Of a DNA stretch of 38,552 nt, positions 7,687-38,552 are shown piece after piece (position 1 is the stretch's first letter; the number at the start of each line of letters is the position of its first letter). Origin of the DNA: a virus; the IMG/VR virus record IMGVR_UViG_3300028831_000592, positions 1-38,552 of that record; one strand, given 5' to 3'. The translations under genes and the position numbers were made by a program. A model generated the notes under the pieces. It saw only the letters and a program-made list of their open reading frames with translations, ran no database searches and had not been told where the DNA came from.

Positions 7687-7710
7687 ATTTCTATTTAGGG
7701 AGATTTTTGT

Positions 7711-17437: not shown

Positions 17438-17489
17438 AACGAATTTAGTTTGCCATTGCTCCACTTGTTAAACGCAAATGGAGATTGCA

Positions 17490-20382: not shown

Positions 20383-21093
20383 ATGGCTTATACAACGAAT
20401 CAACTCATAACAAACGCATTCTATTCCTCTGGTGTTGTTTCACGTGAGTTTGAAACGGTCAGTGGACAGCAGATAGGAGATGGCCTCTCTTGGCTTAACC
20501 AAATCATTGATGAGAAGGTGGTAGACGATGGAATGATTCCATACGAAAGCACCTATACATTCAATGCAGTACCAGGCCAAGAGATTTACTTTATACCGAA
20601 CCTTATTCAGATTGATACCTTAGTGTTCTTCCTGAATACGGTTCGATTCTCAATGATGTACAACAAGCGAAATAATTACTTTGGATCTAACCGCGTACAA
20701 AACATTAGGACGCTTCCTTATCAGTGGTACTTTGAAAGACAATTGCATGGTGGAAATCTATATATTTATTTCTCACCAGACCAAGCCTACCCAATGGAGC
20801 TTCACGGGACCTTTAGGCTTCCTGAGGTGACATTGGGTCAGGATTTAACGCTAACGTTGGATATGTTCTATATCACCTATCTGGTATATGCGTTAGCCGA
20901 TAGAATTTGTGCCGAATATAATTATGTAACACCGCCTGGAGTTACCAGGCAATTGGGTAAATATGAAGGATGGATTGATAAGAAATCTAGGTTATTGGAT
21001 TTGAGGCTTGAGAAGGTTTCATGCTTGAATAGCCATACAACTACCTATTCTTGGTCGTACATAAACTTGGGCCGAGGTTTCACTCCACCGTAA
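20383..21093 (+). CDS. Virion structural protein, possibly a head-tail adaptor by position (P22 gp4 position)
   Basis: A 236-aa ORF directly upstream of the gp10-like gene. The assignment rests on position only. Confidence 0.5.
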   Translation: MAYTTNQLITNAFYSSGVVSREFETVSGQQIGDGLSWLNQIIDEKVVDDGMIPYESTYTFNAVPGQEIYFIPNLIQIDTLVFFLNTVRFSMMYNKRNNYFGSNRVQNIRTLPYQWYFERQLHGGNLYIYFSPDQAYPMELHGTFRLPEVTLGQDLTLTLDMFYITYLVYALADRICAEYNYVTPPGVTRQLGKYEGWIDKKSRLLDLRLEKVSCLNSHTTTYSWSYINLGRGFTPP

Positions 21094-21120: not shown

Positions 21121-22710
21121 ATGTCGACAGAATTAGCGCAACAAGCCCCCGTTAACGTAGCAGGCTCCAGTAAGTTTGGAATTTGGCCCAAGATTAATCT
21201 TGAGAAAACGTATAACATGTACATTTCTGATAACTGGATGATATCTTTTCCTGGCTATAAAAAAATTGCCTTAGAAGCCTTAACAGGAGAAGGTAGAGCT
21301 ATATTTCGCTCTGTTCGTGGTGGATTTTTAATAGCGGTCATAGGTTCTGGAGTCTACCGATTAAATGCAAATCTAGCCCCAATATTCATAAGCAATATTG
21401 ACACAGTGCGTGGAGAGGTTTTTATAGATGAGAACCTCCTAGGTCAAATATGCTTAGTGGATGGAACGAAAGCCTACATATACTCTTATGCAAGTGGAAG
21501 CTTCACAACTCAGGATTTGAGAGATGAAAATAATAATCCAATAGTTCCAAACTACGTTTCCTATCACAATACTTTCTTTTTGATTTCGTCTTCAAAGACA
21601 AGTCAGAGCAACCAGAACTGGTATGCTTTTGAATGGGCATCAGATACCACTATTTCCGTTTTCTCTACTCAGTCTATATCTACCAAGCCAGATACAGCAA
21701 TCGCCGCTAGACGCATTCCAGGGCGCGGAAACAACGTGATTGTCCTTGGAGAGTCCGTATCTGAAATCTGGACCTTCACAGGCGCCGAGCCAGTTGCCGG
21801 GGTTGATAGAACCTATACCAGGGTATCGTCCTATAACATCGATAATGGCTGTATCAGCGTTTCAACCATTGCAGCAGGCGAGGATACCATAGCTTGGCTA
21901 GCTGTAAATGAGGTTAACTCTCCCGTCATCATGGTAACCAATGGAGCCGAAACGCGCCAGATATCAACCGACGGTATTGATCACCTTATGGAAAGCATTA
22001 AGTTTCCAGAACAATCTACTGCGTTCTTCTTCCGGCAAAATGGACACCTATTTTATCAGTTAACATTCTTTAACCCCGTCGATAATCTAACTCTAATTCA
22101 TGATTTTACGAATAATCAGTTCTACCATTTATCAGATGAGAACCTTAACTATCATATAGCTCGAGATATTGTTTACTTTAATGAGAGGTCATACTTTGTC
22201 TCGCTCAAGGATGCTTCTATCTATGAAATTGCAGACCAATATAATACTTATAGCTATTCGACTGCCAAAGACGATGTTGGCTTAACCATTCCTAGGATAC
22301 GTATATGCAAGACAATTAGAAAGGAAGATTCCTCAACCTTTAGGTGTGGAATGTTCACCTTTTGGATAGAGCAGGGCGTTAATAATTTCTTCGATGCGGG
22401 TGAATGCGATGGGGAAATGATAACCGAAATTACCGAACAAATAATGATAAGCGAAAGCGGCTTTACCATGCTAGACGAACAGGGATTCTGCCCTCCAGAG
22501 ATTGATGTACCGCGCGTTGATATGTCCTTCTCAAAGAACGGTAACGAATCATTTAGCAATTTCGTAGGTAGAGATTTGCAACCCATGGCTCATTTTAGAA
22601 ATCAAATACGCTGGCATAGAATTGGTCAGGCAAATGAGATTACAATTCAATTGAGATTCTGGGGCTTAAATCGCTTCGTGGTTCAAGATGGCGTTTTGGA
22701 GATGTATTAA
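21121..22710 (+). CDS. Packaged-DNA stabilisation / tail hub protein (P22 gp10-like)
   Basis: 529 aa. SFPGYKKIALEALTGEGRAIFRSVRGG..VYRL and the C-terminal IRWHRIGQANEITIQLRFWG parallel P22 gp10 segments as I recall them. Confidence 0.6.
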   Translation: MSTELAQQAPVNVAGSSKFGIWPKINLEKTYNMYISDNWMISFPGYKKIALEALTGEGRAIFRSVRGGFLIAVIGSGVYRLNANLAPIFISNIDTVRGEVFIDENLLGQICLVDGTKAYIYSYASGSFTTQDLRDENNNPIVPNYVSYHNTFFLISSSKTSQSNQNWYAFEWASDTTISVFSTQSISTKPDTAIAARRIPGRGNNVIVLGESVSEIWTFTGAEPVAGVDRTYTRVSSYNIDNGCISVSTIAAGEDTIAWLAVNEVNSPVIMVTNGAETRQISTDGIDHLMESIKFPEQSTAFFFRQNGHLFYQLTFFNPVDNLTLIHDFTNNQFYHLSDENLNYHIARDIVYFNERSYFVSLKDASIYEIADQYNTYSYSTAKDDVGLTIPRIRICKTIRKEDSSTFRCGMFTFWIEQGVNNFFDAGECDGEMITEITEQIMISESGFTMLDEQGFCPPEIDVPRVDMSFSKNGNESFSNFVGRDLQPMAHFRNQIRWHRIGQANEITIQLRFWGLNRFVVQDGVLEMY

Positions 22711-24771: not shown

Positions 24772-26912
24772 TGACTATCATTCATTACAAAGGTGAAGAT
24801 GTAGAAGTAGGCGATTTGCCAGAGAATGCAACGTCAGAGCAAAAACGGGCTGCATTATTTAAGGCCAGACCTGATGCCGAAGTTGCTTATAAAAAATATG
24901 TAGCAACCAAGCAAGGCGCGCCCAAACCAATTCCCGCAGCTCCTCTCTCGGAAACTGAATCAAAGGTGGCTGAGGATGTAAAGAGAATAAACGAGGGTCA
25001 ACTTCCTATATCGAAATCTGCAAATGCCCCACGTCGTCCTGAGGGTCCTAGAGCACCAATGACACCACAGCAAGAGCGGGCATCTAAAACAGGTAATTAT
25101 GGAAGAAGTGAAACGGTAGATAGACTATTTAAAAACTTAGGCGCAGGTGCGGCAGAAAGCATACACAATGCAGCTTCAAACCTTCCTGATATCTCAGGCG
25201 GAATGCCAGAGAGAGAAAAATTATTAAAACGTTATCTGAAACCACAAGAATCTGAAAAACTTAAATATCATTTAGGCAAGCAAGAAAGGCCAGATTACCA
25301 ACAGAAATTCGGAATCAATGAATCTAATTATAGCCCTGTTACTCAAAAGATTCCTGAGTTAGCAGCTATGTTATTAACGAAACGGCCTCCTTTGTCTAAT
25401 TTAGCAGCCAATGTTCCAGGGGTAGCTGGTGGATTAGCTAGGACAGGACTCAATGCTGCTTCAGAATTTGGCACACAAGCCTCTCTAGGCGCGTTATTCA
25501 ATCCAGAAGATAAAATGGGGCATGCAATACCTCAGGGCACATACGGAGCAGGCGGAAGCGTTTTAGCGGATGCTTTAGCCTCAGCGGATCCAAGATTAAG
25601 ATTTCTTAAAGCTGCTGTTCCTTTTGCGGGAGGTGGTTATGTGGGTTATAACTTACCGGGAGAAGAGGCGCCCGCGTGGAAAAAAATTGGAATGGGAACA
25701 GGAGGTGCTCTTTTAGGTTTAATGGGGCCTAATGCAATTCGTAAACTCCTAGGTGGAGATTCTGGACACTATGCTAGGCCCTACGCTCAAAAGATCATGA
25801 GAACTATGACTCCTGAAGATGCGGCAAGATTGTCAGAGGCTGAAGCAGCCGGAAACAGAGCCGGAATAACCAGTCAGACATTAGGTCAAAAGACGCAAAA
25901 TCCAATCCATTTGGAAGGTGAGAAAAAGCTTGGAACAAATGAGGTCAATGTTCAGAAGTTCAGGGAGAATCAAGAAAAGCAAGTCGAACAAATGACACAT
26001 TCTAAGGAGGCTACAGCCAGATCTCACAGACCGACAGATAGACAAATAAAAGATCAATATGCTGCTTCAGATAAAAGTGCGAATGCAAAGCAGGTTAAGG
26101 GATCTATCGCAAATACAAAAATTGGTGATCCAAGATTAAATAAAAAATTAATAGATGATCCAGAGTATCTAGCCGCTCTTAAAAAAACTTATGAGGATAC
26201 ATCACAAGTTTCTAGGTACGGTCATGAAGACAAATTTAGCATGGCTAGACAAGACAAAGTAAAAAGAAACCTAGATAAAAAAATAGAGAGCATGGAAAAA
26301 CAGATAGCTGAAAAATCCAAGGATGCTCCCTCTGCAGATGATGTTCATCGTGTTAAGGAAGTAAGGCAAGCTTTAATTGATACCTTAGATGAAACATCGA
26401 AAGGGGAATATAAATTAGCCAGAGAGCTTTATGAGAAAAAGGTTTGGGCTGATAAGGTTCATAATTCCTCAATTGAAGAATTTAGGAAGCTGCTTTCTAA
26501 TCCTAAGAGTTTTAAAGATCTAAAAGACACAGTTAAGGGTAATAAATTTCTAGAGCAACGTTACGACGATCTAAGGCTTATATTCCAAAATGTAAAAAGT
26601 ATTGATGTTAACAAGATGGCAAAAGCATTGCCAAAAACTACGTTCTCATCAGCTTTAACCAATCCTATAGAATCAGGGAAAGCTTTAGCAAGGCGTATGT
26701 TAGATGGAAGTTATGAGAAGGCTGCATTATCTTTGTCATTGAATCCTAGGGCTGCAAGGGAGCTACATGAATTATCAAAAGTTTCAGACCCAGCTAAAAG
26801 GGCAGCTTTATTGGTTCAACTTGCGTTCAGATATTCTGGCAACACACATGCGCAAGAACCAAGCTATAAGTTTACTAAAGAAGATTACAAAAAGATGGAA
26901 GGAACCAAATAA
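24771..26912 (+). CDS. Large internal virion (ejection-type) protein
   Basis: 713 aa, with a central Gly-rich hydrophobic stretch (PFAGGGYVGY...GMGTGGALLGLMGP). The assignment is by position. I saw no lysozyme motif. Confidence 0.5.
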   Translation: MTIIHYKGEDVEVGDLPENATSEQKRAALFKARPDAEVAYKKYVATKQGAPKPIPAAPLSETESKVAEDVKRINEGQLPISKSANAPRRPEGPRAPMTPQQERASKTGNYGRSETVDRLFKNLGAGAAESIHNAASNLPDISGGMPEREKLLKRYLKPQESEKLKYHLGKQERPDYQQKFGINESNYSPVTQKIPELAAMLLTKRPPLSNLAANVPGVAGGLARTGLNAASEFGTQASLGALFNPEDKMGHAIPQGTYGAGGSVLADALASADPRLRFLKAAVPFAGGGYVGYNLPGEEAPAWKKIGMGTGGALLGLMGPNAIRKLLGGDSGHYARPYAQKIMRTMTPEDAARLSEAEAAGNRAGITSQTLGQKTQNPIHLEGEKKLGTNEVNVQKFRENQEKQVEQMTHSKEATARSHRPTDRQIKDQYAASDKSANAKQVKGSIANTKIGDPRLNKKLIDDPEYLAALKKTYEDTSQVSRYGHEDKFSMARQDKVKRNLDKKIESMEKQIAEKSKDAPSADDVHRVKEVRQALIDTLDETSKGEYKLARELYEKKVWADKVHNSSIEEFRKLLSNPKSFKDLKDTVKGNKFLEQRYDDLRLIFQNVKSIDVNKMAKALPKTTFSSALTNPIESGKALARRMLDGSYEKAALSLSLNPRAARELHELSKVSDPAKRAALLVQLAFRYSGNTHAQEPSYKFTKEDYKKMEGTK

Positions 26913-29116
26913 TGGCATTGGATGCTCACTATGTAACAGACGGCCCATTAGAAGAATACTTTGTAAGTAAGGATACCGGCTTACCTCTAGCAGGCGGAAC
27001 TCTAACCTTCTACGAGGATTCATCAAGGATTACTCCAAAGCCCGTATACGAGCTTTCAGGCGCCCCTCCTAACTACACTTACACGCCTCTTGATAATCCA
27101 ATGACGCTAAGCGCGGTTGGTACAACTCAAAATGCTGGCGGAGACAATGTCGTTATTTATTATTTTCCTTGGAAAGCAGATGGAATAACGCCTGATTTAT
27201 ATTATATTGTCTGCAAGGATTCGAACGGCGTTGTACAGTTTACACGTGAAGCTTGGCCTAATGGTGTTGTTTCGGGTGGTAGTGGTGAATTAACTACACT
27301 TCCAGTTCAAAATCAGATATCTAACCCACAATTTACCAATATATTAATAAATGATGTTCCTGGATTAACGCCAACTACTACTACTTATACGGTTTCAGTA
27401 GCTAGCAACCAAGTATTTAACTTTGCGCCAGACTGGAATTTTATTATAAGTGGAACTGGAACGGTAACGGTTAGTCGAATAGCATTAACTGGATCTTCTC
27501 AGGTTCCTACTAGCCCTCCATACCTAATACAGGTTGCCGTAGGGACTGGGGTTACACATTGTTATCTTTCACAAAGATTTAACACAAACTCAGGATTATG
27601 GACCAGCACAGAATCTGAATCAATATTCCTCTCTACAAGCATAATGGCCAGAAATGAACAAGGCCTCGATACAAGCATTGAGATGTTCTATAACGCATCT
27701 TCTGGCACAGCAACGCTTATTCCAATATTTGATTCATTAATCCCAGCAGGCGCTCCCTATGCCGTTTATACGGGGTCCAGCGTCGTTCCTCTCCCCGCAT
27801 CGGATGACTCTAATAGCGGAACGGCAGGCTATGTAGATATTTATATTTCATTTGCCCCAAGCTCGAAAGTTAGCATTAGCAGCATCCAAGTTGTCCCAAC
27901 CTTTGATGCCGAAGCAGCTGCAACTTTTTCATATGATGAAACCTCAGCTAATAGAGATGAAGCCCTACAAGGCAGCTATTATTTACCTAGGGTAACGCGC
28001 TCGCCAATTCCAAGTTTACTAACTGGATGGGACTTTCCCCTTAATCCGGCCCAAAAAGGGGATTCTCAAACCGTAGTATTTGGAACTCCAGATTACGTTT
28101 GGGACCAAACCATTTGCAATAGCATTGTAGGGAATGTGGCCGTAACCAGAAATACAGCTACTGGAGGTTTAACGTTAACTCCAGCTGCCTCTAATGATGC
28201 TATGTATATATTGCAGTATCTTACAGGTGCCGAAGCTAAGGAAATGCTTTATACGAGGCTTAGCACCAATATTTCCGCATGGCTGTCTGCCGCTGTCGGA
28301 ACGGTTACCATAAGAGCTTATTTGTTTGTAGGGACTGCCGCATCAACCGTTCCCACGCTTCCGGCCTCAATTGGGAACACTGACAATGTAGGGGTATTTA
28401 CAAAATCTGCTTCTGGGTGGACTGAAATACCAAGAAGCGGATTAGATACGGCTAGGGCCCAAGTGGTAGCTGTTTCTCCTACGGTAAATAATGATATCCA
28501 ATTTACTGGTTGGGAAATAATAAATTCAGGCGTGTTAGCTGATACAAATAAGTTCGCTATGGTCGTAACGATAGCTTGGACAACACCTCCTGTTATTAAT
28601 ATAAATTCCATTTCTCTTAACAAAGGTGACTTACCAACTCGCCCAGCTCCACAAACAAAGGATGAGGTTTTATCTGAGTGCCAATATTATTTTGAAAAGA
28701 GCTATGATTCTGGTGTAAATCCTGGCGCAACCTCTACAAATGGCGCGATGTCATTCCAGTTGTTTACTGAGCCAACAGGGGGTAGTAGTTCGTTTATATT
28801 GGCTAGAAGCTTTTCAATTAGATACAATACTCCTAAAAGAGCAGCGCCAACAGTTGTGATATATTCTCCTGCCACCTTAAACGCATCAGGAAAAGTTCTA
28901 GTAAGAGAGTACTATCAAGGCTCACAGTTAAATACTGCAGATTTCACATTAACAGATTGGTGGGAAACATTCTTTCCTGGAATGAAAGGAATTACCTATC
29001 ATGCAATTGCTACAACATTTATGTTTCAACAAGTGGGTGGTAATTGGGACGGAACATCCGAGGCGCTAGCGTTCTTGCATTATACTGCTGACGCACGCTT
29101 AGGCGTAGTAGCTTAA
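26912..29116 (+). CDS. Tail spike / major tail fibre
   Basis: 734 aa. The N-terminus GLPLAGGTLTFYEDSSRITPKPVY is typical of podovirus fibre and spike N-termini. The rest is beta-rich and S/T/G/N-rich. Confidence 0.6.
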   Translation: MALDAHYVTDGPLEEYFVSKDTGLPLAGGTLTFYEDSSRITPKPVYELSGAPPNYTYTPLDNPMTLSAVGTTQNAGGDNVVIYYFPWKADGITPDLYYIVCKDSNGVVQFTREAWPNGVVSGGSGELTTLPVQNQISNPQFTNILINDVPGLTPTTTTYTVSVASNQVFNFAPDWNFIISGTGTVTVSRIALTGSSQVPTSPPYLIQVAVGTGVTHCYLSQRFNTNSGLWTSTESESIFLSTSIMARNEQGLDTSIEMFYNASSGTATLIPIFDSLIPAGAPYAVYTGSSVVPLPASDDSNSGTAGYVDIYISFAPSSKVSISSIQVVPTFDAEAAATFSYDETSANRDEALQGSYYLPRVTRSPIPSLLTGWDFPLNPAQKGDSQTVVFGTPDYVWDQTICNSIVGNVAVTRNTATGGLTLTPAASNDAMYILQYLTGAEAKEMLYTRLSTNISAWLSAAVGTVTIRAYLFVGTAASTVPTLPASIGNTDNVGVFTKSASGWTEIPRSGLDTARAQVVAVSPTVNNDIQFTGWEIINSGVLADTNKFAMVVTIAWTTPPVININSISLNKGDLPTRPAPQTKDEVLSECQYYFEKSYDSGVNPGATSTNGAMSFQLFTEPTGGSSSFILARSFSIRYNTPKRAAPTVVIYSPATLNASGKVLVREYYQGSQLNTADFTLTDWWETFFPGMKGITYHAIATTFMFQQVGGNWDGTSEALAFLHYTADARLGVVA

Positions 29117-29135
29117 TATTTAAAAGGATTTAATT

Positions 29136-29492
29136 ATGATTACACCATATGTCGCCCAACAAACCGTAACAGACTTTGGACTTAGGTTCTCTAACTTAAA
29201 ATATAGTTGCACCTTAGCCATAACGACTGACACGACCTTAACAATCCCAGGAGCTGCTCCAAGCTATAAAGCTGTCATTAAATGCATGCCGGCAGGCCAG
29301 GTTTGGGTTGCCCTAAATGCCACAGCAGCAGCGCCAGCAGGTAATACCTTTGCGGCAACGACCTCAGAACTCTTAACCCAGGATTATGAGCTTTGTAGAG
29401 AAGTAAAAGCGGGAGATGTGCTACACTTTTTTAGTAGCACAGCAACGACGAATGTAAGCGTAAGTTTATTCGCTTTAAATACACCTAACTAA
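29136..29492 (+). CDS. Small beta-rich structural protein
   Basis: A 118-aa ORF with an AAAAGGA RBS, lying inside the fibre cluster. Confidence 0.5.
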   Translation: MITPYVAQQTVTDFGLRFSNLKYSCTLAITTDTTLTIPGAAPSYKAVIKCMPAGQVWVALNATAAAPAGNTFAATTSELLTQDYELCREVKAGDVLHFFSSTATTNVSVSLFALNTPN

Positions 29493-29505
29493 ATGGAGGC
29501 CATGG

Positions 29506-30723
29506 ATGGCCGATATCAAATGGAGCCAGTTTACCTCTGGCGGTAATGTCCAAGTTGGCGATATAAGCGTTGGCCTTAGAAGTGCCGATAATATACAATT
29601 CACGTTTCCAGGTACTGGGATAGGGGATGCAAATGGCAATCTGATGCTTGGCTATACGTCCCCAGGTGTCGGAGCAATCAATCATGTGCTTATTGAGAAC
29701 GCCGTCACAACTACGCCTCCGTCTATCTCAGCGGCTGGAACCGATACAAATATAGACCTCAAACTATCCTCCAAGGGCGCGAGTAATATCCACCTCAATA
29801 ATGTGCTCGTTGATAATACGGGAGATATATCGGGGATTGCTACAGCAATGTTCTCTGGCTCATCTAGCGGCCAAGCCATATTGAAAGCCCAAGCGGCAGC
29901 TGGAACGCCAACTTTACAACTTCCCAATACTTCCGGCACCTTAGCCTTAACGAGCGCGCTGCCAAGTTTTCCTATCACCCTAGCGCAAGGAGGCACCGGA
30001 GCCTCTCTAACAGCCTCTAACGGGGGTATTTTTTATTCTAATGCATCTACAGGGCAAATACTCGCAGGGACCGCTACGGCGAACCAGGTGCTTTTATCTG
30101 GGGCTTCTACAATGCCTTCTTGGAGCATGGCTACTTATCCTGCGACTACGGCTGCCAATAAGATTTTGTACAGTTCTGCAACTAATACGGTTAGTGAATT
30201 AGCATCAGCGAATAGTGCATCTCTTGTGACCAATTCATCAGGCGTCCCTTCATGGGCTGGCCCTCTGAATGATGGTCAAGTGATTATTGGTGCTACGGGC
30301 GGTACACCACAGGCAGCTAATTTGTCCCAAGGGCCAGGAATCACTATTAATACAGCCGCTCATAATATCACTATCAGTGCAGCAACTGGCGGTGGTGGGT
30401 TAGCCTGGTCAACGATATCTGGCACCACTCAGACGGGCGTAGCAGGGGCGGCTTATATTCCAACAAATGGTGCACTGACCACTATTGATTTGCCGGCTAC
30501 ATGTAACCCAGGCGATATGATAGCCGTTCAGGGACAAGGGAGCGGAATGTGGACGATTCAAGCCAACACGGGCCAAACGATTCATATTGGATCATCCGCA
30601 AGTTCGGTTGCAGGAACCGTTTCTGCAGCAAATCAATATGATGCTATCACTTTAGTTTGTATTGTGGCCGATACGGATTGGGCCATGTATGGACCGGTTT
30701 CATCCGGCTTTGTAATTGTTTAA
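29506..30723 (+). CDS. Tail fibre paralogue F2 (unique N-terminus, GGTG connector, C-terminal module A)
   Basis: LAQGGTGASLTA is the connector. The C-terminal ~105 aa are homologous to the C-termini of 30739..31266 and 31280..31879. Confidence 0.65.
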   Translation: MADIKWSQFTSGGNVQVGDISVGLRSADNIQFTFPGTGIGDANGNLMLGYTSPGVGAINHVLIENAVTTTPPSISAAGTDTNIDLKLSSKGASNIHLNNVLVDNTGDISGIATAMFSGSSSGQAILKAQAAAGTPTLQLPNTSGTLALTSALPSFPITLAQGGTGASLTASNGGIFYSNASTGQILAGTATANQVLLSGASTMPSWSMATYPATTAANKILYSSATNTVSELASANSASLVTNSSGVPSWAGPLNDGQVIIGATGGTPQAANLSQGPGITINTAAHNITISAATGGGGLAWSTISGTTQTGVAGAAYIPTNGALTTIDLPATCNPGDMIAVQGQGSGMWTIQANTGQTIHIGSSASSVAGTVSAANQYDAITLVCIVADTDWAMYGPVSSGFVIV

Positions 30724-30738
30724 TAAAAGGATTTTAAA

Positions 30739-31266
30739 ATGGCTACAAATAATGCACTCAATACGGCAACTGTTCCCTTACCAGGTTCTTTTGGTGGAAC
30801 AGGGGTTAATAACTCAACAAGTACAATAACGATTGGCGGCAATGTAACATTTTCAGGTGCTCATACATTCACCGGAACATTGACTGGAAATACAAGCGTT
30901 ACATTTCCAACCTCAGGAACATTGGCTACAACGGCTAATAGTTTTGTTTGGAACGATGTTTCAGGCACAACTCAAGCTGCCGCGGTCAATAACGGCTATA
31001 TCTGCTCTAATGCTAGCGCCACTACTGTCACTCTTCCGGCGACGGCGGCTGAAGGTTCAGTTGTCTCAGTTCAAGGAAAGGGGGCAGCTGGTTGGGTATT
31101 AGCGGCTAATACAGGGCAAACGATTCAGGTAGGTCAAACAGCGAGCTCAACAGCCGGTTCTGTGACTTCAGCTGCTCAATATGACTCAATATCTGTGGTT
31201 TGTATCACGGCTAACACAACCTGGGCAACCACAAGTGTATTAAGCTCCGGCGTAACCGTAGCATAA
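30739..31266 (+). CDS. Tail fibre paralogue F3 (N-module 1 MATNN.LNTAT...GGTGV, C-module A)
   Basis: Its domains are shared with F2 and F4 (C-terminal) and with F5 and F6 (N-terminal). Confidence 0.65.
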   Translation: MATNNALNTATVPLPGSFGGTGVNNSTSTITIGGNVTFSGAHTFTGTLTGNTSVTFPTSGTLATTANSFVWNDVSGTTQAAAVNNGYICSNASATTVTLPATAAEGSVVSVQGKGAAGWVLAANTGQTIQVGQTASSTAGSVTSAAQYDSISVVCITANTTWATTSVLSSGVTVA

Positions 31267-31279
31267 GAGAGGAACTCAA

Positions 31280-31879
31280 ATGCCGATATTAAGTACAAAC
31301 TTTAATGATATAGCAAACTCAGGCCAGACTCCGACGCTTATAAGAATAGATACGGATGATAGCCTTTCAACGGTTTTGACCGCTGGTTATCTAAATGTCC
31401 TAAAAGAACAGAACCTTCCTTTGAGCGAAGATACGGTAGCTCTGGTTAGCACGGGCGTTGGAGTTCATAAAGCTGTAACAGCTTTGGCTATGGTCTTCTC
31501 AGCTGGCAATTGGAGCCTTGAGATTATGGAAGGCTACGAGCCTGTAGGAGGAGGGCAAGGTATAAGCTTTGTTGGTTTACCAGGCACTTCAAAAACGGCC
31601 GTAATCAATACCGGTTACGTAATTCAAAATGCTAGTCAAACAACGGTTACCCTTCCAGCTGTTGCTCCTGTAGGAGCTGTGGTGGCTATACAAGGTTATG
31701 GGGCAGCTGGTTGGGTATTAGCCCCAGGCGCCGGTCAGAACATTCAGGTAGGGCAATCAAATGCGACTACATCTGTAACCTCAGGTGCTCGATACGATGC
31801 AATCCAAGTAGTCTGCGTTGTAGCCAATACCACATGGACGACTTCTTATCTTGTCAGCGCCGGTGTAACAATTGCATAA
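31280..31879 (+). CDS. Tail fibre paralogue F4 (N-module 2 MPILS..., C-module A)
   Basis: The N-terminal ~90 aa are homologous to F7 and F8. The C-terminus is homologous to F2 and F3, and includes a 23-nt identity, 31700..31722 = 31081..31103. Confidence 0.65.
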   Translation: MPILSTNFNDIANSGQTPTLIRIDTDDSLSTVLTAGYLNVLKEQNLPLSEDTVALVSTGVGVHKAVTALAMVFSAGNWSLEIMEGYEPVGGGQGISFVGLPGTSKTAVINTGYVIQNASQTTVTLPAVAPVGAVVAIQGYGAAGWVLAPGAGQNIQVGQSNATTSVTSGARYDAIQVVCVVANTTWTTSYLVSAGVTIA

Positions 31880-31892
31880 AATGGAGATATAA

Positions 31893-32552
31893 ATGGCAAC
31901 GAATAATCAATTAAATACTGCTACAACCGCTATCTCGGTAGCAGAGGGCGGTACAGGTGTTGCAACCATGACGACCGCTTATACTCCGATTTGCGCCGGT
32001 ACCACTGCCACCGGAAACCTTCAACCAGTAAGTGGGACAGGCCTTGCAAACTCGGGCTGGATACTGACTAGCAATGGCGCTGCCGCCTTACCGACCTTCC
32101 AGGCTCCGGTTATAAATGTTTTATCAGTTCCTCTAACAGCCACTAATGTATTAGCAATGTATGCGACTCCGTTTCAAATAATTGCAGCTCAGGGAAGTAA
32201 TACGCTTATCGTTGTTTATTCGACTATTCTTGAGTATATCCATGGGGGCTCGGCTTTTGCAGGAGGTAGTGGCAGCGGAAATGGTCCTGTCCTTCAATAT
32301 GGAAACTCAGCCCATGCAGCCGGCGACTTATCTTTTATTTCACTTATGGATATAACCTCTGCATCAAGTCAAGTATCGTATGGAGCGGCAAACAATGGTA
32401 ATAATCAATATCCGCTTGTTTTAGCTAATCCATCCTCGGGTGCTGTGAACCAAGGTATTTACGCTACTAATGATACAGCTGCATACACCGGCGGTACAGG
32501 TTCTTCGCTTAGATATACTATTTACTATGCTGTATTGACCACAACTGTTTGA
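31893..32552 (+). CDS. Tail fibre paralogue F5 (N-module 1, C-module B)
   Basis: The N-terminus is MATNNQLNTATTAISVAEGGTGV...CAGTTATGNLQP. The C-terminus ...IYATNDTAAYTGGTGSSLRYTIYYAVLTTTV is homologous to F6 and F7. Confidence 0.65.
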   Translation: MATNNQLNTATTAISVAEGGTGVATMTTAYTPICAGTTATGNLQPVSGTGLANSGWILTSNGAAALPTFQAPVINVLSVPLTATNVLAMYATPFQIIAAQGSNTLIVVYSTILEYIHGGSAFAGGSGSGNGPVLQYGNSAHAAGDLSFISLMDITSASSQVSYGAANNGNNQYPLVLANPSSGAVNQGIYATNDTAAYTGGTGSSLRYTIYYAVLTTTV

Positions 32553-32561
32553 GGATAAAAA

Positions 32562-33227
32562 ATGGCTACAGTTACTAATCAATTAAACAGCGGCACAACA
32601 CCATTAAGCGTCCTGAGTGGAGGAACGGGGGTTAATACGCTGACTACAGCATATGCGCCAGTCTGCGCCGGAACGACTGCAACTGGGGCTCTCCAACCCG
32701 CATCTACCGGCCTTTCTTCTTCTGGATTTTGTCTTACTTCAAATGGTGCGAGCGCATTGCCTTCCTTTCAAGCTTTTCCGGTTACCGTTACAAAACTCTC
32801 TGTTAACCTAACTGCATTAAATCTTACAAGTATGTATACCACACCGGTGCAAATTTTAGCAGCTCAAGGCGCTCACAAACTTATAGTCGTACATGCGGCA
32901 GCAATAGAATATATATTTAACACAACATCATTTACGGGTGGTAGTTCAAATGGCCCCATACTTCAATATGGAAACACGCAACATGCAGGCGGAACTTTAA
33001 TTTTCGCATCAGCCCTGGACATTACAACCAATGTAAGCAAAGTTAGCTATGGCCCAGTCAATGGTTTAGCTGTTTCATCCTTCACGGACATTGCTTTAGT
33101 ATCAGGTACAGGTACATCAATGGTTAATAATGCGATATACGTTACCAACGATACAGCGCCTTATGCATTAGGAAATAGCACTGCACGAGTAACTATATAT
33201 TATTCCGTCTTAACGACCACTATATAA
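32562..33227 (+). CDS. Tail fibre paralogue F6 (N-module 1, C-module B)
   Basis: It is collinear with F5 along its whole length. Confidence 0.65.
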   Translation: MATVTNQLNSGTTPLSVLSGGTGVNTLTTAYAPVCAGTTATGALQPASTGLSSSGFCLTSNGASALPSFQAFPVTVTKLSVNLTALNLTSMYTTPVQILAAQGAHKLIVVHAAAIEYIFNTTSFTGGSSNGPILQYGNTQHAGGTLIFASALDITTNVSKVSYGPVNGLAVSSFTDIALVSGTGTSMVNNAIYVTNDTAPYALGNSTARVTIYYSVLTTTI

Positions 33228-33240
33228 AGGGATAAAAATA

Positions 33241-34752
33241 ATGCCAGTCCTATCGTATCAAGTTAATGCTCCGGGCTACGGGGGGGTCAATCCGAAACTC
33301 GTGTATATTTTTAGTGACGACCCAGTCTCAGTAATCACCGCGCAGGGCTATATAGATTGGTTAGCAAATGGGCAGGGAATCTATACCGGGGATGTCGCTT
33401 TAATTGTTAGCCGTCAAACACCTACATCCGTATTTGCTGCGAATTTTTATGAATTTCAAAGGGTAGGGAATGGTCCCCATTGGGATTTGATCCCTGAGTC
33501 TGGCGGCACTCCGCCTGTCGATTCTGTATCGGGGACATTACATGAAATTATCGCCTCCCCCACTACTGGCAATGTGGTGGTGTCTATTTCTCCTAATGCT
33601 ATTCTTCCTGGTAACGCATCAATCAACCTTCCCGTAGGCAATACCGCTCAGCGTGCTGGTGCTGCTGGCTCTATTCGATTTAATAGCCAACTCTCTCAGT
33701 TTGAAGTCACAGTTGATGGCTCTACATGGGTAGCTTTAACGACGGGAGGAGCAGGGGCCGTATCTAGCGTAACAGGAACCACAAATGAAATTGTCGCATC
33801 TCCAACCACGGGGAATGTCGTAGTTTCTATAGCCAGCAACCCTGTTCTCCCTGGAACAGCGGAAGTCGTTTTACCAACGGGAACCACAGGCCAACGCGGA
33901 AGCACGGCTGGTGGTTTGAGGATGAACACACAACTAAACGAGATAGAGCTTACAAACGATGGAACAAATTGGTACCCGGTTAGCACTGGTAACAACACAG
34001 TTAATAGCGTATCTGGAACCGCTAATCGGATCACCGTTACCGGAACCAATAATGTTATTGTTGATATTGCTTCCAATTATGTGGGACAAAACACCATAAC
34101 GACATTAGGTACTGTAACTACAGGCACATGGAATGCGACTACGATAGCCGTTGCTCATGGTGGAACATCAGGCACCAGCTTCACGGCGAATGCCCCTATC
34201 TGCGGCGGCACATCAAGCACGTCCGTTTTTCAATCAGCCGATGATCAATTTTCCAATGTAGGCTATGTCCTTACTTCCCGAGGTTCCGGAAGCACTCCGA
34301 ACTGGCAGCCAGCACCTGGAGGCGGAGGGTCATTTGTATCCTCTGTCACTCTAAATCAATCTGACATACAAAATATGTATGCGAGTCCGATCCAAATAGT
34401 AGCAGCTCCCGGAAGCAATATGCTAATCGTCGTAGATCAGGTTGTTTTTCAGTATAACCTAATCTCCGGCGGCCCAACATTTGGTGGAGGAGGAACAACA
34501 GGGCTTCAATATATTAATGCTGCGCATGGAGCTGGAACCATCATTGCTTCTTTTCCGGCAGCCATTGGAGGGGTAGATACTATGTATATTTTATCTCCGG
34601 ATTTAACTTTTGGAACGCATGCATCTATCGTAGCCATAATAAATCAGGGATTGTATTTATCAAACCAGACGGCGGCATGGACAGGCGGGAACGCAGGAAA
34701 CTCGGCTAAGATTGATGTTTACTATAGGATCGTATCTACGATTTTTACATAA
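33241..34752 (+). CDS. Tail fibre paralogue F7 (N-module 2, ~80-aa tandem repeats, GGTS connector, C-module B)
   Basis: The N-terminus MPVLSYQVNAPGYGG... parallels F4 and F8. Repeats start at about 33517, 33760 and 34000. The C-terminal ~150 aa parallel F5 and F6. Confidence 0.65.
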   Translation: MPVLSYQVNAPGYGGVNPKLVYIFSDDPVSVITAQGYIDWLANGQGIYTGDVALIVSRQTPTSVFAANFYEFQRVGNGPHWDLIPESGGTPPVDSVSGTLHEIIASPTTGNVVVSISPNAILPGNASINLPVGNTAQRAGAAGSIRFNSQLSQFEVTVDGSTWVALTTGGAGAVSSVTGTTNEIVASPTTGNVVVSIASNPVLPGTAEVVLPTGTTGQRGSTAGGLRMNTQLNEIELTNDGTNWYPVSTGNNTVNSVSGTANRITVTGTNNVIVDIASNYVGQNTITTLGTVTTGTWNATTIAVAHGGTSGTSFTANAPICGGTSSTSVFQSADDQFSNVGYVLTSRGSGSTPNWQPAPGGGGSFVSSVTLNQSDIQNMYASPIQIVAAPGSNMLIVVDQVVFQYNLISGGPTFGGGGTTGLQYINAAHGAGTIIASFPAAIGGVDTMYILSPDLTFGTHASIVAIINQGLYLSNQTAAWTGGNAGNSAKIDVYYRIVSTIFT

Positions 34753-35024
34753 TGAGTCACGCAATTATTAAAATAATGGGGGTATTTATGTCTCCAATAA
34801 CGATGATAGTAGCAGGCACTTTATTTGTTTCATGGAGTGCGGTTGTAATTTATTCGAAACTTTTTAATAAAGATGAATCGGGTATAGAAAAAAAAATAGA
34901 ACATGTAATAGAGCAAGATATTGAGAACGTTTTAAATTTACCATCAGGAACGATGGATGGAAAATTAGATTTTATGGTGCAGTCTCCGGAAGAGCCTGCT
35001 GAGACTAAGGAAGAAAATAAATAA
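34752..35024 (+). CDS. Single-pass membrane protein with an acidic tail, embedded in the fibre cluster (holin-like by shape only)
   Basis: 90 aa. The hydrophobic segment is ITMIVAGTLFVSWSAVVIY and the C-terminal half is acidic. It has a TAATG overlap with F7. Confidence 0.45.
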   Translation: MSHAIIKIMGVFMSPITMIVAGTLFVSWSAVVIYSKLFNKDESGIEKKIEHVIEQDIENVLNLPSGTMDGKLDFMVQSPEEPAETKEENK

Positions 35025-35034
35025 GGAGATTGAG

Positions 35035-36234
35035 ATGAGCATTTTAAGTTTTAACATTAACGAACCTGGTCAAGCTGGCGTTTTCCCTCCCATGATCAGA
35101 ATAAGCACCAATGACACATTAGCCGAAGTAATGGCAACCGGATATTTAAATGGGCTACATGAGGAAAATGTTCCCCTTGTAAGCGGTATGATGGCGCTTG
35201 TTGGAACAAAAACATCACCTAGTTCGCCTTACTCATCTAGTAGCTGGCTTGATATTCAATTCTCAAATGGAAATTGGAGCCTAGTGTCAATTGGTGTTGC
35301 ACCTGGAACTATACAAACACCCACCATCGCAAATCATATTGCTGTGTTCTATGATACAGCAGGTAGTTTAAAAGATAACGTTTCTACAGCGATTAACGGA
35401 GGCAATATCCAAGCTGGCCTTTCAGGAACTGCTGGCTATCTTGCATCTTTTCCTTCCGCTGCAACTTCTGGCTCTTTGCGCGTTGCTGCAGTTGCTAATA
35501 GCGGAGATTATGTTGTAGATATTTCCAATGCTTCTCACGGACAAGCAACAACCTACGTTATTCCTGATGTGGGCAATGCAAATGGTAGATTATTAGCTGC
35601 CGCAACGGCGACTCCATTTGTAGCCAATCACATTCTAACCGCTTCAGGAACGGGTGGTGTTGTATCTGATAATCCCGCGACCGCAATACAAGGGGGCAAT
35701 TTGCAGGCAGGACTCAGTGGAACTGCAGGTTATGTTGCTTCGTTCCCGTCTGCTGCAACAAGTGGATCGCTTAGATTGACTGCAGTTGCTAACAGTGTTG
35801 ATCAGGTTGTAACAATATCAAATGACTCACACGGTCAAGCAACGACCTACAGTATCCCCGACGTTGGAAATGCTGCAGGTCAAATACTGGTAGGAGCAAC
35901 AGCAACGCCGTTTACCTCAGGACATTTGCTATCGGCCTCTGGAACCGCTGGTATTGTAGCAGATTCAGGCGTCGCAACAAGTGCTGTCCAGTTGAGCGCA
36001 GATATCAAGGCGGTTACTACTGGTAATATTGGTGGAGCAGGGGCTGGACCACTAACTGTAACGCAAGCAGCTTGCACTTCATCGAGCGTTATATTATGCT
36101 CAGTACAATCATCAAGCAACCCCTGTTACGTAATTACAATTGTCCCTGGAACTGGCAGCTTTACTGTCACGACCAATACCGATCCAGGTGCATCTCTCAT
36201 ATTGAGTTACGTTTTATTCGTTGCTGCCCAGTAA
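35035..36234 (+). CDS. Tail fibre paralogue F8 (N-module 2, 98-aa tandem repeats, unique C-module C)
   Basis: The N-terminus is MSILSFNINEPGQAGVFPP.... The repeats lie at 35326..35619 and 35620..35913, with a partial third copy. Confidence 0.65.
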   Translation: MSILSFNINEPGQAGVFPPMIRISTNDTLAEVMATGYLNGLHEENVPLVSGMMALVGTKTSPSSPYSSSSWLDIQFSNGNWSLVSIGVAPGTIQTPTIANHIAVFYDTAGSLKDNVSTAINGGNIQAGLSGTAGYLASFPSAATSGSLRVAAVANSGDYVVDISNASHGQATTYVIPDVGNANGRLLAAATATPFVANHILTASGTGGVVSDNPATAIQGGNLQAGLSGTAGYVASFPSAATSGSLRLTAVANSVDQVVTISNDSHGQATTYSIPDVGNAAGQILVGATATPFTSGHLLSASGTAGIVADSGVATSAVQLSADIKAVTTGNIGGAGAGPLTVTQAACTSSSVILCSVQSSSNPCYVITIVPGTGSFTVTTNTDPGASLILSYVLFVAAQ

Positions 36235-36252
36235 GGAATTTTGGTCAGGAAG

Positions 36253-36277
36253 GGGAGCCTCAGTGCTCCCTTTTTTT
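36253..36277 (+). terminator. Rho-independent terminator at the end of the structural operon
   Basis: GGGAGC-ctcagt-GCTCCC followed by TTTTTTT. Confidence 0.7.
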
Positions 36278-36302
36278 AAATAGAAAAAGGAGAAAGGATA
36301 TT

Positions 36303-36470
36303 ATGAAAAAGGTTGGTTGGTTCTTGCTTGCCGTTTTAATTGGTTTTTTTTTAGTTGTTACGGTAGTTTATAGCGAATATGAATACGATGAAGAAAACCA
36401 ACTTATTTCTGATATCGATGATGACGATCCAGGCTGTCCGACGTGGCTAGTTAACCTGTCTATAGCCTAG
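36303..36470 (+). CDS. Small membrane-anchored protein, 55 aa, with an acidic C-terminus
   Basis: AAAGGAGAAAGGA lies upstream of the ATG at 36303. The sequence is MKKVGWFLLAVLIGFFLVVTVVY followed by D/E-rich residues. The longer 36072 track ORF overlaps F8 and the terminator. Confidence 0.5.
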   Translation: MKKVGWFLLAVLIGFFLVVTVVYSEYEYDEENQLISDIDDDDPGCPTWLVNLSIA

Positions 36471-36499
36471 TTAGAATTCTTAAAACCTGTAGATAATTG

Positions 36500-36523
36500 T
36501 GGTGATTATAGTAATAATCACCA
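36500..36523. repeat. Perfect 9-bp inverted repeat TGGTGATTA-n6-TAATCACCA
   Basis: Read directly. Confidence 0.8.
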
Positions 36524-38411: not shown

Positions 38412-38552
38412 ACCTTTTAATTTTTTGCTTTTTGGTACATCCAATAGGCATCTTCTATGAAAAACCCCATAGTGGTAGTTGCAGCCCCAATTCCTCCGCC
38501 TATTACGCACGCAGGGATACTCTTTCCACCTGCCAATCCGCCTATGCATCCG
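38412..38552. repeat. Terminal direct repeat, second copy of 1..141
   Basis: Identical by direct reading. Confidence 0.95.

What the first reader, a model, noticed from the sequence alone, without database searches (positions are those of the whole stretch)
29506..36234. Seven paralogous fibre genes built combinatorially from two N-terminal and three C-terminal modules
Downstream of the 734-aa spike gene there are seven further fibre genes, F2 to F8. They reuse discrete modules.

**N-terminal modules**
- N-module 1 (MATNN.LN..T...GGTGV) occurs in 30739, 31893 and 32562.
- N-module 2 (MP/SxLS....N.PG.....P.L..I..DD....V.TAGYL, about 90 aa) occurs in 31280, 33241 and 35035.

**C-terminal modules**
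- C-module A (...TV/IxLPAT...G..V.VQG.G..GW.L.AN.GQ.I.VG......G.V.S...YD.I..VC...) occurs in 29506, 30739 and 31280.
- C-module B (...MY..P.QI.AAQG...LIV.........GG....P.LQYGN..HA.G ... IY.TND.A.Y.....S....IYY.VLTTT) occurs in 31893, 32562 and 33241.
- C-module C is unique to 35035.

The combinations N1-A, N2-A, N1-B and N2-B are all present. Together with the spike gene and two small ORFs, this block occupies roughly a quarter of a 38-kb genome.

This suggests two alternative attachment adaptors, possibly a branched fibre complex, each displaying a set of interchangeable receptor-binding tips. Short stretches of exact nucleotide identity, for example 31081-31103 = 31700-31722, could drive further shuffling.
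- Inference: the attachment-adaptor and branched-fibre interpretation.
Basis: partly seen in the sequence, partly recalled or inferred. Interest (0 to 1): 0.7.

Follow-up and report, generated by a model that had tools for sequence, protein, structure and literature searches.

The report
Modular head and tail fibre genes
A small uncultured phage spends a quarter of its genome on seven mix-and-match fibre genes, and three of them carry an anchor related to a known capsid-decoration protein, so they probably stud the phage head, not its tail.

Summary
The seven ORFs exist as described. Modules A, B and N2 give significant pairwise scores (1e-30 to 7e-5). N1 is a real 12-15-aa N-terminal peptide. 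The 23-nt identity is exact.

The layout is a family trait. About 38-kb metagenomic podophages (P22-type portal) share the frame spike, 118 aa, F2, variable small genes, F7, small membrane ORF, F8. All genes have ribosome-binding sites and dN/dS of 0.05-0.18.

The interpretation needs revising.
- Module B is homologous to the distal C-terminal domain of the Legionella phage LME-1 head decoration protein (PDB 9EG4; profile E 2.6e-24).
- N2 is homologous to that protein's capsid-binding base (hhalign 95%, P 2e-8; Foldseek TM 0.63).
- F7 therefore has the LME-1 decoration-protein architecture, and F4, F7 and F8 are most likely capsid-anchored head fibres.
- Module A is a beta-sandwich knob resembling CBA120 TSP4-N and the Pa223 capsid spike.
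- N1 resembles the docking peptides of secondary receptor-binding proteins, but its partner is unknown.

N2 occurs at the extreme N-terminus of 659 protein clusters with many different cargoes, or none. I rate this a new variant of known kinds, of moderate interest. Virion location remains inferred.

The parts
26912..29116 (+). 734-aa conserved 'spike' gene that opens the block. Function unassigned.
   Evidence: ORF. 42-72% identical orthologues at the same position in L001, L002, L003, L005 and L008. No Pfam, PHROG or PDB match. dN/dS 0.08.
29136..29492 (+). 118-aa conserved small protein between the spike and F2. Function unknown.
   Evidence: 55-92% identical orthologues in all relatives. 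dN/dS 0.05. No family hits.
29506..30723 (+). F2 (405 aa): own N-terminal region (residues 1-~290, including GGTG-type shaft units) plus module A knob (residues 298-405, nt 30397-30720).
   Evidence: The length of 405 aa is invariant in four relatives. In L008 its first ~210 aa are replaced by N2.
30739..31266 (+). F3 (175 aa): N1 peptide (nt 30739-30783) plus short shaft plus module A (residues 69-175, nt 30943-31263).
31280..31879 (+). F4 (199 aa): N2 base (residues 1-84, nt 31280-31531), 8-residue linker, module A knob (residues 94-199, nt 31559-31876).
   Evidence: AlphaFold model with pLDDT 87 and two domains. Foldseek matches: 9eg4_H TMt 0.63, TSP4-N E 3e-6, Pa223 capsid spike 1.3e-4.
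31893..32552 (+). F5 (219 aa): N1 peptide (nt 31893-31937) within a GGTG shaft unit (residues 1-73), then module B jelly-roll (residues 75-219, nt 32115-32549).
   Evidence: BLASTP to LME-1 Dec 2e-11.
32562..33227 (+). F6 (221 aa): N1 peptide (nt 32562-32609), GGTG unit, module B (residues 76-221, nt 32787-33224).
   Evidence: BLASTP to LME-1 Dec 6e-15. tblastn hit on KT271770.1.
33241..34752 (+). F7 (503 aa): N2 base (nt 33241-33504), 2 x 80-aa repeats (nt 33526-34008), GGTG unit (nt 34117-34320), module B (nt 34333-34749). [quoted passage not shown]
34752..35024 (+). 90-aa ORF with one hydrophobic segment, conserved between F7 and F8 in all relatives. Start overlaps the F7 stop.
   Evidence: Kyte-Doolittle 19-residue maximum of 2.0 at residue 8. 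dN/dS 0.13.
35035..36234 (+). F8 (399 aa): N2 base (nt 35035-35295), 2 x 100-aa repeats (nt 35335-35934), module C (nt 35935-36231).
   Evidence: In L005 the repeats are absent (163 aa). In L008 only the 85-aa N2 domain remains.
31081..31103 (+). 23-nt exact repeat, copy 1 (in module A of F3).
31700..31722 (+). 23-nt exact repeat, copy 2 (in module A of F4).

Best explanation
The block is a conserved, expressed set of trimeric virion appendage genes in a family of ~38-kb podophages. The genes are built from a small pool of domains.

Shown:
- There are three N-terminal types: N2, N1 and the F2-specific region.
- There are several C-terminal knobs: A (beta-sandwich), B (jelly-roll) and C.
- Repeat-based shafts of variable length link them.
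- N2 is homologous to the capsid-binding trimeric base of the Legionella phage LME-1 head decoration protein, and B is homologous to that protein's distal C-terminal domain.

Inferred:
- F4, F7 and F8 are head fibres. Their N2 domains trimerise and sit on three-fold or quasi-three-fold sites of the capsid lattice, projecting a short A knob (F4), a long shaft with a B knob (F7) or a long shaft with a C knob (F8).
- These probably act as adhesins that hold the particle at the cell surface. The bare N2 domain may also cement the capsid.
- F3, F5 and F6 carry the same A or B knobs behind a 12-15-aa conserved N-terminal peptide (N1). By analogy with the 'conserved peptide' of secondary receptor-binding proteins in branched systems, N1 docks them non-covalently onto another virion protein. 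The partner is unidentified; the candidates are the 734-aa spike, F2, the 118-aa protein or an A knob.
- B knobs evolve fast and are exchanged, so they are the likely specificity determinants.
- New combinations arise by recombination at domain borders, plausibly helped by the phage's own RecT and YqaJ system.
For: The modules are real and counted exactly.

B and LME-1 Dec (ALK43931.1, PDB 9eg4_H):
- phmmer 4e-6, profile 2.6e-24, BLASTP 6e-15.
- The gene identity was fixed through KT271770.1 coordinates 8061-8870.
- PMC12407071 places this protein on the capsid, with a trimeric base and an unmodelled distal part.

N2 and the Dec base:
- Only 89 residues of 9eg4_H are modelled. They superpose on the F4 model with TMt 0.63 and probability 0.91.
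- The well-folded B domain of the F7 model does not retrieve 9eg4_H. The modelled part is therefore the N-terminal base and the B-like part is distal.
- Profile-profile hhalign of N2 against the Dec N-terminus rises from P 0.005 to 2.4e-5 to 2.3e-8, at 95% probability over 63 columns, as the profiles deepen. Reversed and shuffled controls give P >= 0.05.

N2 as an anchor:
- N2 is always at residues 1-~86 in 659 clusters, on proteins of 54-1071 aa.
- Its cargo is A, B, C, other or none.
- A complete stand-alone 85-aa N2 gene exists in L008.
- The LME-1 Dec family also swaps distal domains on the same base.

Other support:
- A domain: Foldseek matches to TSP4-N E 3e-6, Pa223 capsid spike 1.3e-4 and CpaA 6O38. 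The interpretation uses.
- The block is conserved by position in six relatives.
- Every gene has a Shine-Dalgarno site and dN/dS of 0.05-0.18.
- Conservation falls from N2 to B along F7.
- N1 is kept even when the following GGTG unit is deleted (L005) or when the cargo differs (L008).
- The docking-peptide precedent is in PMC13352976.
- RecT and YqaJ are present.
Against: - No direct evidence shows where any of these proteins sits in this virion.
- The N2 genes lie in the distal fibre block after the ejection-protein genes. They are not next to the capsid gene as in LME-1.
- The N2 to Dec-base similarity is remote: hmmsearch of the first N2 profile against the PDB found nothing and the Foldseek E-value is only 0.73. 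A homologous domain can change its binding partner.
- The capsid proteins of LME-1 and this phage belong to different PHROG families.
- Three N2 paralogues per genome is unusual for decoration proteins.
- The N1 docking role is purely analogical, and N1 could equally be a capsid-anchoring arm like the 40-residue attachment domain of the Pa223 capsid spike.
- The tools did not report which F4 domain aligns to TSP4-N, Pa223 or 9eg4_H. The domain assignment rests on aligned lengths and TM scores.
Confidence: 0.6

Rival explanations
1. All seven proteins are tail fibres forming a branched receptor-binding complex on the spike or hub. N2 and N1 are two alternative tail adaptors. In this family the LME-1-like base domain has been recruited to bind a tail component instead of the capsid.
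For: - The genes lie at the end of the late operon, after the hub and ejection-protein genes, where podophage tail fibres usually sit.
- No other obvious tail fibre is annotated in the genome.
- Three distinct, position-specific N2 subtypes are conserved across genomes.
- The A domain resembles the assembly region of CBA120 TSP4 and Ackermannviridae tailspikes.
- In L008, N2 replaces the F2 N-terminal region on the same distal part, so the two anchors look functionally interchangeable.
Against: - The only experimentally located homologue of N2 and B is a capsid decoration protein.
- The F4 model does not match any solved tail-fibre anchor (T7, P22, SU10 or LME-1 fibre types) among its PDB hits.
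- Stand-alone, cargo-less N2 proteins are hard to explain as fibre adaptors.
- The Pa223 capsid spike gene also lies beside ejection-protein genes, so position is weak evidence.
- The 734-aa spike and F2 remain available as the tail-borne proteins.
Confidence: 0.25
2. This is a daisy-chain variant. Module A is not a receptor-binding tip but a trimeric docking platform, working like the T4 gp10-type domains. The N1 peptides of F3, F5 and F6 plug into the A knobs of F2, F3 and F4. This would build branched fibres on both head and tail, for example F2-F3-F5 and F4-F6.
For: - A is conserved by position (54-92%), whereas B is hypervariable.
- A resembles the TSP4-N assembly region.
- Both A and N1 are present in every genome examined.
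- The numbers of A and N1 are equal in the window (3:3), L003 (2:2) and L008 (1:1).
Against: - The numbers are unequal in L001 (3 A, 4 N1), L002 (3:4) and L005 (2:4).
- The fold most likely matched is XD1. PMC8825819 says XD1 does not itself bind trimeric partners.
- A also resembles the distal TNF-like knob of the Pa223 capsid spike and glycan-binding modules of CpaA.
- No interaction was tested.
Confidence: 0.12
3. This is the spare-cassette model. Only one or two paralogues are built into virions. The small N1 genes are a reservoir of alternative tips that replace the distal part of F7 or F2 by recombination.
For: - F5 and F6 are collinear with the distal two-fifths of F7.
- A RecT and YqaJ system is present.
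- The copy number of the small genes varies from 2 to 6 between genomes.
Against: - Every gene has its own start codon and Shine-Dalgarno site and is under purifying selection.
- N1 is conserved as an exact N-terminal peptide, which is pointless for a silent cassette.
- All genes are on the same strand, with no inverted repeats, invertase or reverse transcriptase.
- Nucleotide identity between paralogues is too low for frequent exchange, with a single 23-nt match.
Confidence: 0.05

Closest known systems
Head decoration protein of Legionella phage LME-1 (ALK43931.1; PDB 9EG4 chain H; Sci Adv 2025, PMC12407071)
   Same: - F7 shares both terminal domains and their order: an N-terminal ~90-aa base (hhalign 95%, P 2e-8; Foldseek TMt 0.63), a repeat-containing linker, and a C-terminal jelly-roll domain (profile E 2.6e-24).
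- Both families keep the base and swap the distal domain.
   Different: - LME-1 has one such gene next to its capsid gene, in a T7-like genome.
- This phage has three N2 paralogues, in the distal fibre block of a genome with a P22-type portal.
- The shafts here are longer (F7 503 aa against 269 aa), there are two further distal knobs (A, C), and the B knob is also on N1-type proteins that lack the base.
- Capsid binding is not shown here.
Branched receptor-binding complexes (CBA120 TSP1-4, G7C gp66/gp63.1, Klebsiella KP32/K11): anchor, T4 gp10-like branching domain, conserved N-terminal docking peptide
   Same: - Several co-encoded trimeric proteins have conserved N-termini and variable C-termini.
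[quoted passage not shown]
- The A domain of F4 matches TSP4-N by Foldseek (E 3e-6).
   Different: - There are no beta-helix depolymerase bodies. The distal parts are small knobs.
- The TSP4-like domain is C-terminal, not placed between an anchor and a catalytic domain.
- It is probably XD1-type, not the XD2/XD3 branching type.
- No sequence-level gp10 domain is detected.
- The docking partner of N1 is unknown.
Capsid spike gp52 of Pseudomonas phage Pa223 (PDB 9NY6; bioRxiv 10.1101/2025.06.11.659172)
   Same: - It is a trimeric fibre-like protein on capsid three-fold sites with a C-terminal TNF-like knob.
- Its gene is beside the ejection-protein genes.
- It is proposed to be an adsorption aid and is more variable than the tail fibre.
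- The F4 model matches it (E 1.3e-4, 105 columns, rmsd 3.7 A).
   Different: - Pa223 anchors through a 40-residue extended arm and has a triple beta-helix body.
- F4 anchors through a globular N2 domain and has no beta-helix.
- Pa223 has a single gene, not a paralogous set.
Jelly-roll capsid cement proteins (KHP40, Pam1, GP4)
   Same: The B domain of the F7 model shares the jelly-roll fold (Foldseek E 2e-3 to 1e-2).
   Different: - The resemblance is at fold level only.
- In LME-1 the B-like domain is distal, not the capsid-contacting part.

Membership tests
LME-1-type head decoration protein | N-terminal ~90-aa trimeric base domain | tested here: met
   - N2 family profile against Dec N-terminal family: hhalign 95.3%, P 2.3e-8, 63 columns; controls P >= 0.05.
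- F4 model against 9eg4_H (89 modelled residues): TMt 0.63, probability 0.91.
- Applies to F4, F7 and F8.
LME-1-type head decoration protein | C-terminal distal domain homologous to ALK43931.1 residues ~134-269 | tested here: met
   - B-module profile against 9eg4_H: E 2.6e-24.
- Met for F5, F6 and F7.
- Not met for F4 (A) or F8 (C).
LME-1-type head decoration protein | Binds the capsid lattice as a trimer at three-fold or quasi-three-fold sites | not testable with these tools
   Needs cryo-EM, virion proteomics or multimer modelling with the capsid protein.
LME-1-type head decoration protein | Gene located next to the major capsid protein gene | tested here: not met
   - In LME-1 the gene (8061-8870) follows the MCP gene (7162-8031).
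- Here the N2 genes are at 31280, 33241 and 35035, about 12-16 kb downstream of the MCP gene at ~17478-18986.
Branched RBP system (anchor, T4 gp10-like branching domain, docking peptide) | Primary RBP with XD2/XD3 (T4 gp10-like) branching domain after the anchor | tested here: inconclusive
   - F4 model matches TSP4-N (AD-XD1-XD2-XD3) at E 3e-6, but the sub-domain is not reported.
- The co-hit with CpaA 6O38 points to XD1.
- No Pfam hit.
- The domain is C-terminal.
Branched RBP system (anchor, T4 gp10-like branching domain, docking peptide) | [quoted passage not shown] | tested here: inconclusive
   The conserved 12-15-aa N1 peptide is present on F3, F5 and F6 and on most small fibre proteins of the relatives. 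Binding was not tested.
Branched RBP system (anchor, T4 gp10-like branching domain, docking peptide) | Distal parts are enzymatic tailspikes or long fibres that determine host range | tested here: not met
   - No depolymerase or beta-helix families.
- The models show small beta-sandwich and jelly-roll knobs.
Programmed tail-fibre switching (invertible segments, shufflons, diversity-generating retroelements) | Inverted repeats with an invertase, or template/variable repeats with a reverse transcriptase | tested here: not met
   - No inverted repeats in 29000-36500.
- All genes are on one strand.
- No reverse-transcriptase or invertase hit among the window proteins that were scanned (the ten fibre-block proteins, the structural genes and a few early genes). 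The whole window was not searched for these enzymes.

The most novel reading that the evidence does not exclude
The capsid of this phage family acts as a programmable adhesin platform.
- The three conserved N2 subtypes (F4, F7 and F8 types, 25-45% identical to each other but 52-95% identical within a type) each occupy a different class of three-fold site on a T=7 shell: icosahedral, penton-adjacent and hexon-only.
- The head therefore displays three different knobs at defined positions.
- Head-anchored (N2) and peptide-docked (N1) appendages draw on one shared pool of distal knobs, which the phage's own RecT and YqaJ system exchanges.
- Host-recognition modules thus move between head and tail.
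Probability: 0.15. Interest if true: 0.8.

Novelty: new variant of a known kind. Interest (0 to 1): 0.55.

Why it matters
Head fibres and decoration proteins are usually single, idiosyncratic genes. Host-range modularity is usually discussed only for tail fibres.

In this phage family an anchor homologous to a structurally defined capsid-decoration base is present in three paralogues per genome. The same anchor heads 659 protein clusters with highly diverse cargo. It also shares its distal knobs with a second class of proteins that have a docking-type peptide.

If the N2 proteins are on the capsid, three things follow:
- A quarter of a small genome is devoted to surface adhesion.
- Capsids can carry several exchangeable adhesins.
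- The LME-1 decoration fold, described in 2025 as unlike any previous example, is the founding member of a large modular family in freshwater and other environmental podophages.

It would also provide a natural anchor-plus-cargo scaffold for capsid display.

Tried and rejected
- **Family searches:** Pfam and PHROG scans of all ten block proteins gave nothing usable.
- **Phage records:** Megablast of 24.5 kb against GenBank phages gave no match. tblastn of F7 and F4 against phage records gave only weak repeat-level hits to cyanophage proteins.
- **Exact look-up:** The exact-sequence look-up of F5 found nothing.
- **PDB searches:** Sequence searches with F2, F8 and the spike, and profile searches with spike and F2 orthologue alignments, gave nothing informative.
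- **First N2 tests:** The first N2 profile (14 sequences) against PDB sequences by hmmsearch found nothing. The link to LME-1 Dec appeared only with deeper profile-profile comparison and with structure.
- **Identifying 9EG4 'orf16':** The paper's supplements are not held. Searching the window's capsid protein against the PDB did not identify which 9EG4 chain was the capsid protein. I resolved it through the KT271770.1 annotation.
- **Independent genome contexts for N2:** All distant N2 proteins examined lie in the same ~38-kb phage family.
- **Rejected ideas:**
  - Compositional artefact: the E-values and controls rule it out.
  - Inversion or DGR switching: no inverted repeats, one strand only.
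  - Silent cassettes: the genes have ribosome-binding sites, are under purifying selection, and keep a conserved N-terminal peptide.

Full report
**Context**

The window is a complete genome of ~38.4 kb. It has a 141-bp terminal direct repeat, and it is the whole of a 38,552-bp JGI metagenome contig.

It is a podophage. I found:
- a large terminase (12225-13790),
- a P22-type portal (13759-15918, PF16510, E 9e-92),
- an SU10-type adaptor (20383-21093),
- a P22 gp10-like hub (21121-22710, phrog_578), and
- ejection-protein-like genes upstream of the block.

Nothing in GenBank phages is close. Megablast found no match, and the portal is ~25% identical to Xfas53 and VvAW1.

**Checking the observation**

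All-against-all BLASTP with composition correction gave strong scores for module A (1e-30 to 3e-14), module B (6e-70 to 1e-22) and N2 (4e-16 to 7e-5).

N1 aligns over only 23-25 residues (E 0.002-0.03). It is nevertheless a genuine conserved N-terminal peptide, M[AS]T.NNQLNT..TP, found at residue 1 of most (about 16-17 of 19) small fibre proteins in five related genomes. That includes proteins where the following segment is deleted or the cargo differs.

HMMs built from the modules find exactly 3 N2, 3 A, 3 B, 1 C and 3 N1 in the six-frame translation, and nothing elsewhere.

The 23-nt identity is exact, and it is the only repeat longer than chance (shuffles give 11-16 nt). It encodes GAAGWVLA in module A.

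- F2 has its own N-terminal region, not N1 or N2.
- The first ~73 residues of F5 and F6 are homologous to F7 residues 293-360. F5 and F6 are therefore collinear with the distal two-fifths of F7.
- F7 and F8 contain tandem 80-aa and 100-aa repeats.

**A family trait**

F7 has hundreds of metagenomic homologues, many on 35-39-kb contigs. Six related genomes were examined: L001, L002, L003/L004, L005/L006, L008 and L011. They share this frame:
- spike (~730 aa),
- a ~118-aa gene,
- F2 (405 aa),
- 2-6 small genes,
- F7 (~500-1071 aa),
- a small membrane ORF, and
- F8 (85-399 aa).

Module swaps between genomes are evident:
- L005 has an N1...B protein where F3 (N1-A) sits.
- L002's F7 has extra repeats and a different C-terminus.
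- L005's F8 lacks the repeats.
- L008's F8 is a bare 85-aa N2 domain.
- L008's F2-position gene is N2 fused to the F2 (212-396)-like shaft and A knob.

All ten genes of the block have Shine-Dalgarno-like sites. Nine of the ten, compared with L001, give dN/dS of 0.05-0.18; for F6 dS is saturated, with pN 0.35 against pS 0.83.

Conservation falls along F7: N2 68-95%, repeats 58-91%, GGTG unit 54-62%, and B 32-44% or replaced. B domains are only 14-62% identical across genomes whose neighbouring genes are 70-90% identical. A domains, by contrast, are conserved by position (54-92%).

**What the modules are**

*Module B.* F7 hits PDB chain 9eg4_H ('orf16'), and a B-module profile raises this to E 2.6e-24. 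9EG4 is the capsid model of Legionella phage LME-1. tblastn and the KT271770.1 annotation show that the matching gene is ALK43931.1 (8061-8870, 269 aa). The paper names this the head decoration protein. It is a trimer whose base links capsomers and whose distal part was too weak to model. The PDB table lists seven chains of this sequence in the entry.

*Which end is which.* The AlphaFold model of F7 has a confident B domain, a jelly-roll whose best matches are viral jelly-roll capsid proteins and the phage cement proteins of KHP40, Pam1 and GP4. It does not retrieve 9eg4_H. The F4 model (pLDDT 87, two domains) retrieves 9eg4_H, whose coordinates hold only 89 residues, with TM 0.63 over 93 columns. 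Together these show that the modelled capsid-bound base of LME-1 Dec is its N-terminal domain and that the B-like C-terminal domain is the distal part.

*Module N2.* The N-terminus of LME-1 Dec carries the same motif as N2: ...D.VATIAASGYFN...GD.I.I... against ...DD..S.V...GYLN...G..ALVS.... Profile-profile comparison strengthened as the profiles deepened:
- P 0.005 with one Dec sequence.
- P 2.4e-5 with a Dec-family profile.
- P 2.3e-8, 95% probability, over 63 columns, once 150 N2 representatives were included.

Reversed and column-shuffled controls never fell below P 0.05. I therefore regard N2 as homologous to the LME-1 Dec base. F7 then shares the decoration protein's full architecture of base, repeat linker and jelly-roll.

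*Module A.* The best Foldseek matches of F4 are:
- the N-terminal anchor and assembly region of CBA120 TSP4 (E 3e-6),
- a Klebsiella KP1 baseplate protein,
- the Pa223 capsid spike (E 1.3e-4, 105 columns, rmsd 3.7 A), and
- CpaA (6O38).

PMC8825819 lists CpaA and T4 gp9 as neighbours of the nine-stranded XD1 sandwich. The Pa223 preprint describes a 93-residue TNF-like C-terminal knob on a capsid-anchored spike. The TM scores (~0.4 of 199 residues) imply that only the A domain superposes. The tool does not report coordinates, so this assignment is an inference.

*Wider distribution.* BFVD hits are mostly uncharacterised freshwater phage proteins, plus Ackermannviridae tailspikes.

N2 occurs in 659 clusters at 50% identity. 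It is always at residues 1-~86, on proteins of 54-1071 aa. Among 145 representatives the cargo is A (26), B (12), C (31), something else (44) or nothing (15).

The LME-1 Dec family shows the same behaviour. The same base carries other C-termini, and B-like domains sit on other N-termini.

**Mechanism**

The best reading is that the block encodes a set of trimeric virion appendages with three kinds of attachment.
- **N2 proteins (F4, F7, F8)** most likely sit on the capsid lattice, as LME-1 Dec does. They project a stubby A knob, a long shaft with a B knob, and a long shaft with a C knob. They would serve as adhesins and perhaps as cement.
- **N1 proteins (F3, F5, F6)** carry the same knobs behind a short conserved peptide. 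The nearest functional analogue is the docking peptide of secondary receptor-binding proteins. The partner is unknown.
- **F2** has its own anchor.

B is the fast-evolving, exchangeable tip. The phage encodes RecT (684-1532, minus strand) and YqaJ (1522-2454, minus strand). These could mediate exchange at short homologies, although only one 23-nt exact match exists within this genome.

The modules, the homologies, the family conservation and the selection are shown. Capsid location, adhesin function and N1 docking are inferred.

**Rivals**

The genes lie where tail fibres usually lie, no other fibre is annotated, and in L008 N2 replaces the F2 anchor. Against it, the only located homologue is on a capsid, stand-alone N2 domains exist, and no solved tail anchor matches.
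- **A daisy-chain variant**, with N1 plugging into A knobs, is attractive. A is conserved, and A and N1 counts match in three genomes. They do not match in three others.
- **A silent-cassette model** is unlikely.

**Verdict**

The system combines two known kinds, LME-1-type decoration proteins and modular or branched receptor-binding sets. The arrangement itself has not been described: three paralogous decoration-type anchors, with knobs shared between the two anchor classes. I rate it a new variant of a known kind, of moderate interest.

Noticed in passing
window 17921-18132 (+), within the capsid gene ~17478-18986: The major capsid protein gene is split by a group I self-splicing intron (Rfam RF00028, 77.5 bits, E 2e-19, full-length model). 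The two ORF pieces match PHROG 283 positions 37-142 and 202-377.
   Followed up: yes
window 19042-19611 (+); L002 4055-4567; L011 2474-3157: Free-standing homing-type endonuclease genes are scattered in the late operon of this phage family. The window has an HNH gene just after the capsid gene. L002 has an HNH gene between the spike and the 118-aa gene. L011 has an Endonuclease_7 gene before the spike.
   Followed up: partly
window 1-141 and 38412-38552: An exact 141-bp terminal direct repeat shows that the contig is a complete, circularly assembled or terminally redundant genome.
   Followed up: partly
window 34752-35024 (+): A 90-aa ORF with one hydrophobic segment lies between F7 and F8 in every relative (44-83% identical, dN/dS 0.13). 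Its start overlaps the F7 stop. A membrane protein inside a fibre block is odd. It could be a holin-like protein or an assembly factor.
   Followed up: partly
window 29136-29492 (+): A 118-aa protein immediately after the spike is the most conserved gene of the block (55-92% identical, dN/dS 0.05) and has no detectable family. It may be an assembly chaperone or an adaptor for the spike or the fibres.
   Followed up: no
L008 8001-8258; proteins P0333, P0342, P0366, P0397 and others: Stand-alone 80-88-aa proteins consisting only of the N2 domain are complete genes in several related phages. This looks like a minimal form of the decoration-type base.
   Followed up: partly
window 684-2454 (-): A RecT (PF03837, E 2e-40) and YqaJ exonuclease (PF09588, E 3e-28) recombination pair is conserved in most relatives. 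In L003 and L011 only RecT was annotated, and in L008 only YqaJ.
   Followed up: partly
L007 (KT271770.1) 8061-8870 and homologues P0260-P0322: The LME-1 decoration-protein family is itself modular. About 200-aa variants keep the base and linker but carry a different C-terminal domain, and some 150-aa proteins carry only the B-like domain.
   Followed up: partly
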